Shown here in pieces: positions 16,563 to 62,457 of a stretch of 64,000 bases of DNA. The DNA is from an uncultured Alphaproteobacteria bacterium. Its GTDB lineage: Bacteria; Pseudomonadota; Alphaproteobacteria; MPNO01; UBA2964. The position numbers were made by a program, and so were the translations under genes. The DNA lies in assembly GCA_951812775.1 (NCBI GenBank), contig OX638326.1:3823180-3887179 (forward strand), given 5' to 3'. The number at the start of each line of letters is the position of its first letter. Positions within the stretch are counted from its first letter, which is position 1. Below the pieces are notes generated by a model that did not search any database, was not told the DNA's origin, and was given only the letters and a program-made list of their open reading frames with translations.

Positions 16563-17967
16563 CTAAAGCCTGATGACGGCCATCTTGTCCTGGGTCAGGT
16601 CGTGCATGGTGTGACCGATTCCGCCGGTGCCATAGCCTGACTGTCGCCGTCCTGCAAACGGCATCCAGTCGACTCGAAAAGCTGTGTGATCATTTATCAT
16701 GACAGCCGTTGCATCCAGAGACCGTATCAGTTTGGTGGCGGTGTCGAGTCGTTGCGTAAATCCAGCTGCCTGAAAAGCAAAGGGTAGGGCGTTGGCACGA
16801 TCAATCGCTTCCTCAATAGTCTCATAGCTATAGACTGCGAGTACGGGGCCAAAAATTTCAGCAGTTGAAAGACGTGTGTCGCTACAAGGGTTCAAAATTA
16901 CTGTAGGTGCAAAGGCAGTTTCACCCAATTTTTCGCTACCACACAGAACATCTCCACCGCTTTCCATGGCCTCAGATACCCATTCAGCCACGCGCGACAC
17001 TTCGCCCGGGCGAATGAGGGGGCCAACCTCGACCTTCTCCTCAATTGCATTTCCCACGACGAGCTTGCTCGCCTGTTCGGCGATAAGTCCGGCGATATCA
17101 TGCGCCATCGATGCTGGTGCAAAGACGCGCTGAACCGATACGCAAACCTGTCCAGCGTGGTAAAATCCACCTTTGACCAAAAGGGGCAGCATTGCGTCGA
17201 TATCTGCGCTTTCATCGATAATAACCGGCGCGGCACCGCCATGTTCTAATGCCGCCCTGGTGCCCGGTGCGAGTTTTGATCGCAGCATCCAGCCAACGCG
17301 GGCTGATCCGATAAAACTGAAAAATGCTACACGCGGGTCTGTAATAAGACGTTCTGCCGTAGGAATGTCACAGGGAAAATACTGGCACCATTCTTCGGGG
17401 AGTCCGGCCTCATATAAGATGTTTACAAAGCTTTGCGCCGAAAGCGGTGTGTCATCTGCCGGTTTGATAATGACGGGGCAGCCCGTGGCGATAGCGGGTG
17501 CTACCTGATGGATAATCAGATTTAGTGGGTGATTGAATGCGGAAACCGCGACAACCGGCCCAATCGGTTCCTTGCTGGTAAAGGCCATTCGGCCGGCGCC
17601 GGCGGCGGTGAGATCCATTGGAATTTCGTGTGCCAGTGAGATGACTTAATTCCTTGGCAGCGAGTTCGACACCATCGATCGCACGGTCGACTTCGATCCG
17701 GGCATCAATGAGCGGCTTGCCCCCTTCATTGGCAATTTGAAAAGCAAGCTCGTCAAAACGCTCACGCATGAGGGCGCTGGCTTTGTGCAAAACAGAAATC
17801 CGCTGATGGGCGGGAAGCCAGCTATCGCGATCACGATGTAATCGATCAGCGGCGGTGAGCCACTTATCGGCTTCTTCCCATGTGCCTAAAGAGACTTCAC
17901 CGATGGTCTCGAGAGAGAACGGATTGCAAACAGACAGGATGGCATATTCCTTGGCTTTCGCACGCAC
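16563..17967 (-). pseudogene. aldehyde dehydrogenase (NAD(P)+) family, split by a 1-nt frameshift
   Basis: 17452..17967 encodes the ALDH N-terminus (IANEGGKPLIDARIEVDRAIDGVELAAKELSHLTG). 16563..17618 encodes the rest (HEIPMDLTAAGAGRMAFTSKEPIGPVVAVSAFNHP...catalytic Cys region GQVCVS). The frames switch at ACTGGCACACGAAATT (~17625-17640). Confidence 0.7.
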
Positions 17968-18044
17968 TTGCGTACTCAGTGCCTTAGAATATGGGGCCTA
18001 AATCTGAATCAAAGATAACTTTTCCGCGATACGGCAGAAAAACC

Positions 18045-50282: not shown

Positions 50283-51659
50283 TTAGTCTTCATCCCGCAA
50301 TACGGCATGGATGAGCCAGTGGGCAATGGCGACCAAGTCATAATCTTGGCGATAATATCCGATGAGCTGAATGCCCAGGGGCATATCATCTTGGGCTAAA
50401 AGTGGGACATTCAAGGCCGGAACACCAAGCTGAGAGGAGTGTTCGCCATACACAGCATTGCCGACTGGCATACCCTCCGGCGCTGGTCCTGTAGCGTTTA
50501 ACGTGAGCAAGGCGTCATATTTTTCTGATAGGGCCTGGTGTCGTACTTTGGCTTCCGCGCTCCATATCAGGGTTTCTTCATATTGTTCCGGTGTGATGTC
50601 TGCAGAGGAAAGAGCTCTGTTGAGAACTCGTTCCCCAAGCTTTTCAGGATTGCGATCAGCATACATCATCAGCGGCCAGCGGCCCTCATACGCCAAAGTC
50701 ACTTCCATAACCTCGCGCAACTTGATCAGGTCCTGTTCGTAGGCTTCCAGTTCCGGATCATCCTGACGACCAACGACCTCGACGCCGCGGCCCTCAAGTT
50801 TGTCGAGCATCTTGTTGAAAATAGCACGGGTTTCTTCAGGTGTTTCGAGCCATCCTGCGCTTTCGATACGCGCTACGCGCTTCGGTTTTCTGGCTTTGGG
50901 GAAAACTGCCTCACCTTTGAGGCTGGGATGTCCGGCGTCACCTCCAGCATTTCTTGATAGCCAGTAGCCGGTTATCCAGGCATCCGCCAAGGAGCCGGCG
51001 AGTATTCCCAAATGACCGACACTTGGTGGCGGCGGAAAGCCACCACGGGTGTTGATCGCGCCATGGGATGGCTTCAATGCCCAAGCACCGCAGAAGCAGG
51101 CAGGCCGTAAGACCGAACCACGAACTTGTGTTCCAGTTGCGGCAGGAACCATGGAGGCGCCGACTGCCGCTCCTGAACCACTCGATGAACCTCCAGGTGT
51201 GCGGTTGGTGTCCCACGGGTTGCGTGCCGGGCCGGGATCACCAAAAGCAAATTCGGTGGTAACTGTTTTGCCGACGACGATCGCCCCCCCGCGGCGGAGA
51301 AAATACACCGAGGCTGCATCCCAACCAGTTTCGTATCCGTCAAAAAGCGGGCTACCCAATTGCATCGGCATGTCTTCGGTTTCAAACACGTCCTTAATAG
51401 CGATAGGCATGCCGTCCAGAGGAGATAGCGGCGCGCCATTTCGATATCGTTCCGTTGCCTCGTCCGCCATCTTGCGAGCGCGATCAACCGACATTGTTAC
51501 AAAGGCCCTGACCTCGGCCTCGCGAGCATCAATAGTCTCTATACAGCGCTCGAGATACGCTCTGGGCGTATCGCTCCTGTCCAGGAAGGCTGGTAGCTTG
51601 TCGTGAAAGGTCAGCAATTTGGTCGAGGATGGATCGTAGGCCAACGTATTCCTCCGCAA
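50283..51659 (-). CDS. amidase-signature family amidase
   Basis: 458 aa; GGSSSGSGAAVGA signature. Confidence 0.75.
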   Translation of the reverse strand: MRRNTLAYDPSSTKLLTFHDKLPAFLDRSDTPRAYLERCIETIDAREAEVRAFVTMSVDRARKMADEATERYRNGAPLSPLDGMPIAIKDVFETEDMPMQLGSPLFDGYETGWDAASVYFLRRGGAIVVGKTVTTEFAFGDPGPARNPWDTNRTPGGSSSGSGAAVGASMVPAATGTQVRGSVLRPACFCGAWALKPSHGAINTRGGFPPPPSVGHLGILAGSLADAWITGYWLSRNAGGDAGHPSLKGEAVFPKARKPKRVARIESAGWLETPEETRAIFNKMLDKLEGRGVEVVGRQDDPELEAYEQDLIKLREVMEVTLAYEGRWPLMMYADRNPEKLGERVLNRALSSADITPEQYEETLIWSAEAKVRHQALSEKYDALLTLNATGPAPEGMPVGNAVYGEHSSQLGVPALNVPLLAQDDMPLGIQLIGYYRQDYDLVAIAHWLIHAVLRDED

Positions 51660-51864: not shown

Positions 51865-53506
51865 ATGGGTTTAATTCATTCACGGACTTTCCTCCGGGAA
51901 CGTCACGAAATCGTTGACCGCTTGAGCAAATGGCAGGTGCTGGTCAATCTCGTCGCTAAAACTTTTGGCGGTTCGGCATCTTTGGTTTGCCAGATAACAG
52001 AATCGGGTATTCGTCCGGTCGTCTCTAGCGATCAGGAAAGCAACCCGTTTCCTATCGGGGCAACTTTTCCATTTGAAGCCCACACCTTCTGCAAAGAGGT
52101 AATTGTTAAGCAGGAGCCGGTTTACGTTCCAAATGCGCCCGAATATCCCTATTGGGAAGAAAGCCCTGTTTGGACTGAACATGGCTTCCGGACGTACTAT
52201 GGGGTGCCACTTTTTTGGCCGGATGGCCAGGCCTTCGGAACCATTTGTGTCATGGATCTTGTTTCGACGGAGTACGAAGAACCGTTTATCCACTGGCTCA
52301 CCTGTTTTCGGGATTTGGTTGAAGCAGACCTTATATCGGCGGCACAATTTTATATCGGCGGCACAATTTTTGAACAAATCAGAATTTCTCGCTGGCGTCA
52401 GTCATGAGCTGAGAACACCAATGAACGGCATTGTTGGGATGGCAGAGTCCCTGTTGCGTTCGACATTGTCTGACAATCAAAAACTTGAAGTCGAAACGAT
52501 AAAAGACTGCGCGGAAACATTGGTGTCATTACTCGATGACATTTCAGATATTTCCAAAATTGAAGCCGGCCATCTTGAAATCGATATTCAGAGCTTTAGC
52601 CTCAATGAGATGATAGCTCATACCGAGCGCCTTTGGCGGACGCATGCGGATGCGAAAGGGCTGGCACTAACGGTCGATATTGCACTGGATATCCCTACTG
52701 TTCTGGAAGGCGATGTTAATCGAATAAAGCAGGTTTTATTCAATTTACTCTCCAATGCGATAAAATATACCGACCATGGATCGGTGACGGTGAAAGCTCT
52801 GTCCAAAGGTCTAAAAGAGGGTTCACATATCGTCCGGTTTGAGGTGCAGGATACCGGCATTGGACTCGATTGTGATGATCAGGAGGTCCTTTTTCAGCGA
52901 TTTATTCAACCTAACCCGTCAATCGGTGAGGCTGAGGGTGGCGCAGGTCTTGGTATTGCGATCAGTCGAAATCTCGTCGAGATGATGGGCGGCGAGATAG
53001 GGGTCGATAGCGAGGTTGATACGGGGTCGACCTTTTATTTTGAGTTGCCGTTTGGTGTGCCTGGCGAGGCCGACAAAGCGCCAGCTACATCTAAGGCAAA
53101 AGAAGAGCCTGAAACTGCTACCGACGTTTCCGTATTGATCGTAGAAGATAACCGCGTAAATCAACGCGTTCTTGAGGTATATCTTGCACCGTTTGATTTT
53201 GATGCGACGATTGCCGTCAATGGTGCTGAAGCAGTTGCTGCCATTCAAGATGAACAGTTCGATGTTATTTTTATGGATATCCAGATGCCGGTCATGGATG
53301 GGATTCATGCAACCCGAAAGATTCGTGAAGTAGGTGGTTGGTGCGCAAGCGTTCCCATCGTTGCTGTTACGGCGAACGCAACGGCTGGTGATCGGGAACG
53401 CTACCTCGAAGCTGGCATGGATGATTACATTCCCAAACCGGTAGATCGAAGCGCCTTGTTTGAGGTTCTCAGAAAGTACAAACTGGCTTCAAAAATCGTT
53501 GACTGA
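51865..53506 (+). pseudogene. GAF-domain hybrid sensor histidine kinase/response regulator, interrupted by a 19-bp tandem duplication
   Basis: 51865..52407 encodes the GAF domain. 52103..53506 encodes HisKA (VSHELRTPMNGI), HATPase and a C-terminal REC (VLIVEDN...MDIQMP). The reading frames differ by +1 exactly at the duplication. Confidence 0.7.
52332..52369 (+). repeat. perfect 19-bp direct tandem duplication (tatatcggcggcacaattt x2) inside the hybrid kinase gene
   Basis: read directly: 52332-52350 is identical to 52351-52369; removing one copy restores ...EADLISAAQFLNKSEFLAGVSHELRTP in one frame. Confidence 0.85.
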
Positions 53507-60832: not shown

Positions 60833-61544
60833 GCCAGCGACTGAGATGCCTCAAAAGCGAACCGGCAAGGGACTTGCAGTTCTTGCTCTTGGCACCTTTT
60901 GCGTTCTGATCACACTCGGTACCTGGCAGCTTCAACGGCTCGCCTGGAAAGAAGGGTTGATCGCTGAACGACAGGCAAAGCTCGCAATGGCACCGATTCA
61001 GGTGTCGAACCCTCTTGATGTCAAACCGGCACCATTCCGGCGTGTCGTGCTGGAAGGCCGCTTTCTGCATGATAAGGAAATATTTGTAGGGCCGCGCTCC
61101 TTTCGCGGGCGTCCCGGCTGGCATGTTGTTACACCGCTGCAATATAGATCGGGCGCAATCGTGTTGGTTGATCGCGGTTGGGTCCCGCAATCCCGACAGG
61201 ATGTTGCAAAACGGCAATCTGCTCAGAAGACAGGATTCGTCTCTGTCGTCGGTATTGCAGGGTGGCCGCGCAAGCTAGGGTGCTTTGAGCATCAGAACGA
61301 CCCTGGAAAGAACCAATGGTTTCGGGTGGCTCCTGACGCGATGGCGGCGAAGCTGAAATTAGAACAAGTTGCTGCTTTTTGGGTAATCGCAGATGCCACC
61401 CCCAATGCTGGTGGGTTTCCGATTGGCGGTGGCGGAATCAGAATGCCTGCGAACAATCACCTGCAATATGTCCTTACCTGGTATGGCATGGCCTTGGGAC
61501 TACTCGTGCTATCCATCGTCTACTGGCGGCAGAGGCGCCAATAG
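60822..61544 (+). CDS. SURF1-family cytochrome oxidase assembly protein
   Basis: 240 aa; N- and C-terminal TM helices; SURF1 family in the cox cluster. Confidence 0.75.
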   Translation: MTNEPATEMPQKRTGKGLAVLALGTFCVLITLGTWQLQRLAWKEGLIAERQAKLAMAPIQVSNPLDVKPAPFRRVVLEGRFLHDKEIFVGPRSFRGRPGWHVVTPLQYRSGAIVLVDRGWVPQSRQDVAKRQSAQKTGFVSVVGIAGWPRKLGCFEHQNDPGKNQWFRVAPDAMAAKLKLEQVAAFWVIADATPNAGGFPIGGGGIRMPANNHLQYVLTWYGMALGLLVLSIVYWRQRRQ

Positions 61545-62457
61545 TGCCCGGCGCGGCATTCTGGAAGCAGTCTTCGGTCCGAGGGGCACTTTGGATGTGT
61601 GCCGCATCTGTCATGATAGGGATTTCCGCTGCTTGCATCCGCGAGCTTTCCGGGACCTACAATACCTTTCAGCTGGTGTTTTTTCGCAGTGCCGTTGGCT
61701 TGCTGTTGCTCGTGCCATGGATGTTTCGGACGGCGAGGTTGGGCGTTTTATCGACGCAACGTCTGCCGCTATATCTGGTGAGAACGGTGCTTAGCTATCC
61801 GGGATGGTTTGTGTGTTCTATGGCCTGGCGAATATGCCAATTGGCGAGGTTTACGCCCTGTTATTCCTGGTGCCCATCATTACCATTGTGTTGGCGGTTC
61901 TTCTGCTCAAAGAAAGAGCGGGCGCCGAAGCCTGGATTGCTTGTGGTATCGCCTTTATCGGAGCGCTGGTCATTCTGCGACCCGGCATTATCGCTCTTAC
62001 ATTGGCGGCGGCGGTGGTGCTGGTAACTGCCGTGGCCTATTCCGCCGTTAATATCTGTATAAAATCCCTATCCAAAACCGATACACCTGCGCAGATTACA
62101 TTCTACGGACAGTTGCTCGCCTTACCGTTGGCGCTGGGTCCCGCGCTTTTCGTCTGGGTTACCCCTGAATGGTCAGATGTTCCCTTGATCTTTGCCCTTG
62201 GCGCCCTACAGCTGTTGGCGGGGCTGTGTCACGCCTATTCGGTACGTGCGGCAGATGCGCGAGTCGTGCAGCCGTTCAATTTCGTCCGTTTGCCCGCAAG
62301 TGTTTTGATCGCATTCGTTTTGTTTTCTGAGCTGCCATCGCCCTGGACCTGGCTCGGGGCGGGGATGATCTTTGCCAGATCGTACTATGTGCTTTACCGC
62401 GAGGCCGCAAATAAAGAGGCGGCTAGCGACGCAGAAGAAACTCCCTGCCAAGCTTGA
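61544..62457 (+). pseudogene. EamA-family (DMT) transporter, apparent frameshift in a TG repeat between the two EamA halves
   Basis: 61544..~61815 (frame 2) encodes the first EamA domain; 61804..62457 (frame 1) encodes the second; junction at tggtttgtgtgttctatgg. Confidence 0.55.

What the first reader, a model, noticed from the sequence alone, without database searches (positions are those of the whole stretch)
52332..52369. Perfect 19-bp tandem duplication frameshifting a GAF-hybrid histidine kinase
tatatcggcggcacaattt occurs twice back to back. Translation repeats ISAAQF in both frames. Deleting one copy gives an uninterrupted GAF-HisKA-HATPase-REC protein. A 19-bp duplication is a slipped-strand or replication event, or an assembly artefact, rather than a homopolymer base-calling error. 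It is therefore the most probably genuine of the lesions in this window.
Basis: seen in the sequence. Interest (0 to 1): 0.6.

Follow-up and report, generated by a model that had tools for sequence, protein, structure and literature searches.

The report
Fresh 19-bp duplication breaks decaying sensor-kinase gene
A perfect 19-base tandem duplication has just knocked out a GAF-sensor hybrid histidine kinase gene in this marine alphaproteobacterium, and the same gene has been independently broken, gutted or deleted in most of its relatives, so this is an ordinary young pseudogene within a notable pattern of repeated gene loss.

Summary
TTATATCGGCGGCACAATT occurs twice head to tail (period-19 identity 52331-52370). 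It is the only such repeat in the window and far beyond chance. Removing one copy restores a 540-aa GAF-HisKA-HATPase_c-REC protein, 79-85% identical to full-length orthologues and with its catalytic motifs intact.

As it stands, the +1 shift ends the GAF reading frame at TGA 52405-52407, which overlaps the phospho-acceptor His174 codon. The only gene call for the remainder starts after that histidine. The allele is therefore loss of function.

The new result is context. In syntenic loci from nine species-level lineages, this gene is hit in eight, each differently: nonsense codons, start loss, frameshift, large internal deletions and complete deletion. TldD, COX2, GCS2 and DUF3126 are always intact. 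Long-term dN/dS is about 0.07, and intact alleles (P0001, P0002) are interspersed among broken ones, so the hits are recent and independent.

This raises the odds that the duplication is real rather than an assembly artefact, but only reads can settle it. Reversion by precise loss of one copy is possible but untested.

Verdict: a new instance of a known kind. Interest is modest and comes mainly from the parallel-loss pattern.

The parts
52331..52349 (+). Copy 1 of the 19-bp unit TTATATCGGCGGCACAATT; in the GAF frame it encodes (L)ISAAQF, codons about 157-163 of the ancestral protein
52350..52368 (+). Copy 2 of the 19-bp unit, identical to copy 1; in the kinase frame it encodes ISAAQF again
52369..52370 (+). 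TT that repeats the first two bases of the unit: 2-nt microhomology at the duplication boundary, which makes the exact breakpoint ambiguous over three registers
   Evidence: period-19 identity runs 52331-52370
51865..52407 (+). Truncated 5' ORF (180 aa): GAF domain, then 17 out-of-frame residues (YIGGTIFEQIRISRWRQS), ending at TGA 52405-52407
52403..52405 (+). CAT codon of the phospho-acceptor His174 (H-box SHELRTP), in the kinase frame; overlapped by the stop codon of the shifted GAF frame
52352..53506 (+). Remainder of the kinase gene (linker, HisKA, HATPase_c, REC) in the +1 frame, with no native start. The public gene call for this genome (P0006, 361 aa) starts at ATG 52421, downstream of His174
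50283..51659 (-). Divergently transcribed amidase (PF01425), intact here; frameshifted in L002 and reduced to a remnant in L085
53524..54957 (-). TldD metalloprotease, convergent neighbour. Intact and 89-96% identical in all related loci; used as synteny anchor and selection control

Best explanation
The 19-bp repeat is a genuine and very recent tandem duplication in the linker between the GAF sensor domain and the DHp (HisKA) helix of a cytoplasmic GAF-HisKA-HATPase_c-REC hybrid histidine kinase. It most likely arose by replication slippage or microhomology-mediated template switching; a 2-nt TT lies at the boundary. It adds 19 nt, a +1 frame shift. Translation from the native start then yields a 180-aa GAF-only peptide that stops exactly over the phospho-acceptor His174 codon. 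The kinase core and receiver domain are left without a start codon upstream of that histidine, so phosphorelay output is lost. The gene is a young pseudogene. It belongs to a gene that was under purifying selection for most of its history but is now being knocked out again and again across this clade of uncultured marine Alphaproteobacteria. Shown here: the duplication, the frame consequences, the restored domain architecture, and the independent lesions in relatives. Inferred: that the duplication is present in the living cells, how it formed, and that no functional kinase is made.
For: The duplication is perfect, unique and non-random. The repaired ORF has all four domains, and the motifs I pattern-matched are present: H-box, N-box, G1 and the receiver motifs. 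It aligns end to end with intact 538-540-aa orthologues P0001 and P0002. The shifted frame stops at 52405-52407, over the His174 codon. No start codon upstream of His174 in the kinase frame has a Shine-Dalgarno-like motif longer than 3 nt, and the public call P0006 begins after the histidine. Independent lesions in syntenic orthologues: L001 has TGA at codon 134. L002 has ATG to AAG at the start plus TAA at codon 163, and L003/L086 add a deletion. L083/L166/L167 carry a frameshift at codon 507, seen in two assemblies. L085 has TAA at codon 3. L169 has a stop at codon 23, a frameshift and loss of about codons 108-501. L168 retains only codons 459-536. L170 has lost the gene entirely, with TldD and the amidase about 300 bp apart. 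The neighbours TldD, COX2, GCS2 and DUF3126 have no lesion in any locus: kinase 8 of 9 lineages against 0 of 32 neighbour copies, Fisher p about 1e-7. Kinase dN/dS is 0.055-0.116, against 0.010-0.024 for TldD (pairs of different lineages), at dS of about 1 or more, so the lesions post-date long purifying selection. The window's copy has only 6 private changes at otherwise invariant columns, against 4 and 12 for intact P0002 and P0001 and 20 for the multi-hit pseudogene L002. This fits a very young lesion.
Against: No reads are available, so the duplication could still be a consensus or polishing artefact. The same window has two more frameshifted genes, ALDH and EamA, which may point to residual indel errors in the assembly. 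No second genome or metagenome contig of this species was found to compare alleles (in one search only P0006 is more than 85% identical). The native start itself lacks a recognisable Shine-Dalgarno motif, so lack of one at internal starts is weak evidence against re-initiation. The local DNA shows no unusual hairpin that would favour slippage (z = 0.32).
Confidence: 0.7

Rival explanations
1. Assembly or polishing artefact: the organism has a single copy and an intact 540-aa kinase, and the extra 19 bp was introduced during consensus building.
For: Two other genes in the window carry small frameshifts (ALDH near 17640, EamA near 61800), so the consensus may not be error-free. Apart from the duplication the gene looks fully functional, with motifs intact and few private substitutions. 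No independent sequence of this species confirms the allele.
Against: A perfect 19-bp tandem insertion is not a typical base-calling or homopolymer error, and it needs a novel junction sequence (CACAATT|TTATATC) that assemblers do not normally invent. The same gene is demonstrably broken in eight other lineages from unrelated projects, one lesion being seen in two separate assemblies. A real lesion here is therefore expected rather than surprising.
Confidence: 0.2
2. Reversible on/off switch: the duplication is real and silences the kinase, but precise loss of one copy by slippage between the two perfect 19-bp repeats restores the gene at an appreciable rate. The population would then hold both states, as with the pneumococcal capsule genes.
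For: The two copies are perfect and adjacent, and the rest of the gene is undamaged, so a precise deletion would fully restore function. In Streptococcus pneumoniae, spontaneous tandem duplications inside cap3A, cap8E and tts cause reversible phase variation; for insertions of 9 bp or less the expected reversion frequency was put at about 1e-5 at most (Waite et al. 2001 and 2003, as cited in PMC4022640). My recollection, not checked here, is that reversion frequency rises with duplication length.
Against: There are no population or read data. The relatives' lesions are mostly irreversible (nonsense codons, start loss, large deletions, complete loss), which points to plain loss rather than a switching strategy. 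Two copies of a 19-mer are not a contingency-type repeat tract.
Confidence: 0.1
3. Functional split: the duplication separates a stand-alone GAF protein (180 aa) from a sensor-less kinase/receiver product that is still made from an internal start and still signals.
For: The kinase frame is open from 52103, and several ATG, GTG and TTG codons lie upstream of His174. More distant relatives (P0016, P0018) show that this family can persist as shortened non-kinase GAF-REC proteins.
Against: None of the upstream in-frame starts has a convincing ribosome-binding motif, and all lie inside the translated GAF ORF in another frame. The first start after the GAF stop (ATG 52421) lies beyond His174, so that product cannot autophosphorylate. 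No relative has a conserved two-gene arrangement. L001 and L002 are split by nonsense codons at different positions, and L002 has also lost its start codon.
Confidence: 0.05

Closest known systems
Class I (HisKA-type) hybrid histidine kinases with an N-terminal cytoplasmic GAF sensor and a C-terminal receiver domain
   Same: The repaired ORF has GAF, HisKA, HATPase_c and Response_reg above Pfam gathering thresholds. The motifs matched are H-box SHELRTP, N-box NLLSNAIKYT, G1 DTGIG and the receiver motifs MDIQMP, AVTA and KP.
   Different: In this genome the ORF is interrupted between GAF and HisKA, so no single polypeptide carries the sensor and the phospho-acceptor. The ligand of the GAF domain and the downstream partner are unknown.
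Tandem-duplication phase variation in Streptococcus pneumoniae capsule genes (cap3A, cap8E, tts; Waite et al. 2001 and 2003, cited in PMC4022640)
   Same: A spontaneous perfect tandem duplication inside an ORF causes a frameshift and loss of function, and precise excision could reverse it.
   Different: Reversion and population heterogeneity were shown experimentally there and are untested here. The organism, gene class and ecology differ. Relatives here mostly carry irreversible lesions.
Recurrent loss-of-function of global regulators within bacterial species (for example lasR in Pseudomonas aeruginosa, agr in Staphylococcus aureus, rpoS in Escherichia coli; from my own knowledge, not checked here)
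   Same: A signalling gene that is conserved over long time-scales (dN/dS about 0.07) is nevertheless found inactivated by many different independent mutations in sampled lineages.
   Different: Those cases are within-species polymorphisms with known selective settings. Here the hits are spread over species-level lineages of an uncultured marine clade, include complete deletions, and have no known selective agent. Adaptive and neutral loss are not distinguished.
Ordinary bacterial pseudogene formed by a small frameshifting insertion
   Same: A disrupted ORF alongside intact orthologues elsewhere, and a decay series in relatives from single lesions to remnants to absence.
   Different: Nothing essential. 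This copy is unusually fresh, with one lesion and no sign of relaxed constraint.

Membership tests
HisKA-type hybrid histidine kinase (ancestral, repaired gene) | HisKA/DHp domain with a conserved H-box histidine | tested here: met
   PF00512 E = 1.4e-19, residues 165-229; SHELRTP with His174
HisKA-type hybrid histidine kinase (ancestral, repaired gene) | HATPase_c catalytic domain with N and G boxes | tested here: met
   PF02518 E = 2.2e-25; NLLSNAIKYT and DTGIG matched by pattern. My G2 pattern did not match; a G2-like GGAGLGIAIS is visible by eye in the translation.
HisKA-type hybrid histidine kinase (ancestral, repaired gene) | C-terminal receiver domain with a phospho-acceptor Asp | tested here: met
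   PF00072 E = 3.9e-27, residues 417-529; MDIQMP, AVTA and KP motifs
HisKA-type hybrid histidine kinase (gene as it stands in the window) | Sensor, phospho-acceptor His, ATPase and receiver on one translatable polypeptide | tested here: not met
   The +1 frameshift stops the GAF frame at 52405-52407. The remaining ORF has no credible start before His174, and the public call P0006 starts after it.
GAF-domain sensor | GAF fold recognisable at the N-terminus | tested here: met
   PF01590 E = 4e-9, 37.6 bits against a cutoff of 22.4, residues 24-146
Pseudogene | ORF disrupted relative to intact orthologues | tested here: met
   Intact 535-540-aa orthologues P0001, P0002 and L084, against split ORFs here
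Pseudogene | The lesion is present in the organism, not only in the assembly | not testable with these tools
   No reads. No second sequence of this species in the metagenome or protein collections.
Pseudogene | Relaxed selection after the lesion | tested here: not met
   Only 6 private changes at invariant columns, in the range of intact orthologues (4 and 12); motifs intact. This is expected if the lesion is very recent, so it does not argue against inactivation.
Repeat-mediated phase-variable (contingency) locus | Repeat copy number varies between cells, strains or reads | not testable with these tools
   Neither the one-copy nor the two-copy allele was found in metagenome contigs. No reads.
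Repeat-mediated phase-variable (contingency) locus | The repeat tract is conserved at the orthologous site in relatives | tested here: not met
   All seven aligned orthologous DNA sequences have a single copy at this site.

The most novel reading that the evidence does not exclude
The GAF hybrid kinase is a recurrent target of selection for loss across a clade of uncultured marine Alphaproteobacteria. At least seven or eight independent, recent inactivations sit on a background of long-term purifying selection. This would resemble lasR, agr or rpoS loss, but across species in the open ocean. The window's 19-bp duplication would then be the youngest allele and possibly a reversible one.
Probability: 0.2. 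Interest if true: 0.5.

Novelty: new member of a known kind. Interest (0 to 1): 0.28.

Why it matters
On its own the duplication is a routine pseudogenising mutation. For annotation, the two ORFs should be flagged as one disrupted gene, and the 361-aa call should not be read as a working kinase because it lacks the phospho-acceptor histidine. The wider pattern is more useful. One signalling gene has been hit independently in eight of nine related lineages while all its conserved neighbours stay intact, and its long-term dN/dS is still low. That is a clean natural example of repeated recent gene loss. If the loss is adaptive, it identifies a sensory pathway whose removal is favoured in present-day marine populations. 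It also gives a testable handle, the GAF ligand and the neighbouring amidase, on what that pathway senses.

Tried and rejected
- Exact search of the metagenome contig collection with a pattern matching either the one-copy or the two-copy allele gave 0 hits, so there is no population evidence for this species.
- A look-up of this genome's own 361-aa call (P0006) in the contig index and cluster table gave no accession or organism name.
- Rfam scan of the window found nothing, so there is no rRNA or tRNA for taxonomy and no RNA element at the site.
- A search for relatives in species-representative genomes returned one true orthologue (L003) among 80 generic kinase hits. The metagenome search with the N-terminal half added one (L086). 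Using the adjacent TldD as an anchor was more productive.
- DNA folding of the single-copy ancestral sequence gave no significant hairpin (z = 0.32), so hairpin-promoted slippage was dropped as a mechanism.
- Programmed ribosomal frameshifting was considered and rejected. No relative has the duplication, and no slippery site or conserved two-frame arrangement was seen.
- Stop-codon recoding in the relatives was considered and rejected. The stops are of mixed type (TGA, TAA) at different positions, and come with start loss, frameshifts and deletions.
- The promoter-like hit on the minus strand created by the duplication junction lies within chance expectation (3 found against 2.6 expected).
- Twenty other suspicious adjacent ORFs in the window were Pfam-scanned. 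Apart from ALDH and EamA, those with Pfam matches are full-length, so the genome is not in wholesale decay.

Full report
**1. The observation**

The window reads GACC-TTATATCGGCGGCACAATT-TTATATCGGCGGCACAATT-TTGAAC.
- Tandem Repeats Finder reports 52331-52370, period 19, 2.1 copies, 100% matches.
- Period-19 identity spans exactly 40 bases: two copies plus a TT that repeats the first two bases of the unit.
- It is the only perfect tandem duplication of 10 bp or more in the window.
- The 19-mer has no other match in the window, even with 3 mismatches; none of 100 shuffles gave two matches.
- The expectation for such a repeat in 64 kb is about 2e-5.

**2. What it interrupts**

ORF 51865-52407 (180 aa) and the open frame 52103-53506 overlap in different frames. 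Removing one copy gives a 540-aa protein with four Pfam domains:

| Domain | Residues |
|---|---|
| GAF | 24-146 |
| HisKA | 165-229 |
| HATPase_c | 276-390 |
| Response_reg | 417-529 |

The H-box (SHELRTP, His174), N-box, G1 box and receiver motifs were matched by pattern. A G2-like GGAGLGIAIS is visible by eye in the translation, although my G2 pattern did not match it. Full-length orthologues of 535-540 aa exist at 67-79% identity: P0001, P0002 and P0005.

The duplication lies in the linker between GAF and the DHp helix, at codons 157-163.

**3. Consequence**

- Nineteen bases is a +1 shift.
- The GAF frame continues for 17 unrelated residues and stops at TGA 52405-52407. This overlaps the CAT codon of His174 at 52403-52405 in the kinase frame.
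- Start codons in the kinase frame upstream of His174 all lie inside the translated GAF ORF. None has a Shine-Dalgarno-like motif longer than 3 nt.
- The first start after the stop is ATG 52421. The public 361-aa gene call for this 4.15-Mb genome (P0006) begins there, six codons after the phospho-acceptor.

Whatever is made from the 3' part cannot autophosphorylate, so the allele is loss of function. That no internal initiation rescues it is an inference. The native start also lacks an obvious Shine-Dalgarno motif, which weakens the argument.

**4. Relatives**

I collected syntenic loci (GCS2, EF-hand protein, DUF3126, amidase, kinase, TldD, COX2) through the kinase itself and through the adjacent, highly conserved TldD.

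State of the kinase in each lineage:

| Lineage | State of the kinase gene |
|---|---|
| Window | 19-bp duplication |
| L001 | TGA at codon 134 |
| L002 | Start ATG to AAG, plus TAA at codon 163 |
| L003 and L086 (99% identical to L002 in TldD) | Same two lesions plus a deletion |
| L083/L167 and L166 (two assemblies) | Frameshift at codon 507, truncating the receiver domain |
| L085 | TAA at codon 3 |
| L169 | Stop at codon 23, a frameshift near codon 62, loss of about codons 108-501 |
| L168 | Only codons 459-536 remain, with a stop |
| L170 | Gene gone; TldD and the amidase about 300 bp apart |
| L084, P0001, P0002 | Intact |

All aligned orthologues carry a single copy of the 19-mer site.

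**5. Controls and timing**

- In the same loci, TldD, COX2, GCS2 and DUF3126 have no lesion. TldD, GCS2 and DUF3126 are 85-96% identical to the window's proteins; COX2 is 76-94%.
- Counting species-level lineages with DNA, the kinase is hit in 8 of 9, against 0 of 32 neighbour copies. Fisher p is about 1e-7.
- The lineages are old: dS is about 0.9 between the window and its sister L001, and saturated for most other pairs.
- Kinase dN/dS is only 0.055-0.116, against 0.010-0.024 for TldD in pairs of different lineages. Had the gene been dead since before these splits, it would be riddled with stops and have dN/dS near 1.
- A TldD tree puts the window next to L001, which has a different lesion. 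It groups L085, L169 and L168, whose visible lesions also differ from one another.
- A kinase tree places intact P0002 as sister to broken L085, and intact P0001 inside the clade.

The inactivations are therefore independent and recent, at least seven or eight events.

The window's copy has 6 private substitutions at otherwise invariant columns. Intact P0002 and P0001 have 4 and 12, and the multi-hit pseudogene L002 has 20. The window's lesion is very young.

**6. Genuine or artefact?**

This cannot be settled without reads.

Evidence for a real mutation:
- The error class. A perfect 19-bp insertion with a novel junction is not a homopolymer or base-calling error.
- The strong prior from eight other lineages, from unrelated projects, in which the same gene is damaged. 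One of those lesions is seen in two assemblies.

Evidence for caution:
- Two more genes in the window have small frameshifts. ALDH shifts near 17640 in a GGCACACGAA context. An EamA transporter shifts near 61800 at CCGGGATGG. The consensus may therefore not be perfect.
- Twenty other suspicious ORFs were scanned, and apart from these two genes those with Pfam matches are full-length.
- No other sequence of this species was found.

I put a genuine lesion at roughly 0.75-0.8.

**7. Mechanism of origin**

The only local feature is the 2-nt TT microhomology at the boundary. The ancestral sequence has no unusual hairpin (z = 0.32). Replication slippage or microhomology-mediated template switching is the standard explanation. 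It is inferred, not shown.

**8. Reversibility**

Two perfect adjacent copies in an otherwise undamaged gene could collapse precisely and restore function. The closest documented system is pneumococcal capsule phase variation by spontaneous tandem duplications in cap3A, cap8E and tts. For insertions of 9 bp or less, the expected reversion frequency was put at about 1e-5 at most (Waite et al. 2001 and 2003, cited in PMC4022640).

Nothing here tests this. The relatives' lesions are mostly irreversible, so I treat it as a minority reading.

**9. Comparison and novelty**

The repaired gene passes every tested criterion for a HisKA-type hybrid kinase with a GAF sensor. The gene as it stands fails the criterion of one translatable polypeptide. 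A frameshifting tandem duplication making a pseudogene is a known kind of event, so this is a new instance. The added value is the clade-wide parallel loss. It resembles recurrent loss of regulators such as lasR, agr or rpoS (my own knowledge), but across species of an uncultured marine group. Whether it is adaptive or neutral is open.

**10. Organism**

The nearest named relatives are only 'Alphaproteobacteria bacterium' MAGs, and several related contigs come from marine metagenome assemblies, two of them Tara-labelled. The window has no rRNA or tRNA.

**Verdict**

It is an ordinary, very recent loss-of-function lesion in a gene undergoing repeated loss. Interest is modest at 0.28.

Noticed in passing
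window 16563-18000 (- strand), shift near 17640: The aldehyde dehydrogenase gene is frameshifted. Pfam Aldedh positions 115-459 lie in ORF 16563-17645, and the ALDH-like N-terminus (…RERFDELAFQIANEGGKPLIDARIEVDRAIDGVELAAKEL…) is in another frame upstream. The shift lies in a GGCACACGAA context, not a long homopolymer.
   Followed up: partly
window 61379-62457 (+ strand), shift near 61800: An EamA/DMT transporter is split into two overlapping frames (ORFs 61379-62026 and 61804-62457). The switch falls at CCGGGATGG, consistent with a 1-nt indel in a short G-run. This could be a real lesion or a consensus error.
   Followed up: partly
L002 1880-3245; L085 3169-3424; window 50283-51659 (-): The amidase (PF01425) transcribed divergently from the kinase is itself frameshifted in L002 and reduced to a short remnant with stops in L085. 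It is intact in lineages that have deleted the kinase (L168, L170). The two genes are both dispensable in places, but they are not lost together.
   Followed up: partly
proteins P0016, P0018, P0021 (more distant homologues): A related group of 342-366-aa proteins keeps the GAF domain, a degenerate DHp region and the receiver. It lacks HATPase_c in frame and has replaced the H-box histidine (SHELRTP to SEDLKAP in P0018). It appears to be a stable non-kinase derivative of the family.
   Followed up: partly
window codons 134-163 of the kinase (about 52264-52353); L001 codon 134; L002 codon 163: Three of the small lesions (the window's duplication, L001's TGA, L002's TAA) fall within 30 codons of the GAF-DHp linker, and L002's stop is at the same codon where the window's duplicated unit ends. 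This is a post hoc observation. I did not test it for significance, and the other lesions lie at codons 3, 23 and 507.
   Followed up: no
window 52347-52374 (- strand): The duplication junction (AATT|TTATAT) creates a -10-like TAAAAT in a promoter-like match on the antisense strand. The number of such matches in the region is within chance expectation.
   Followed up: yes
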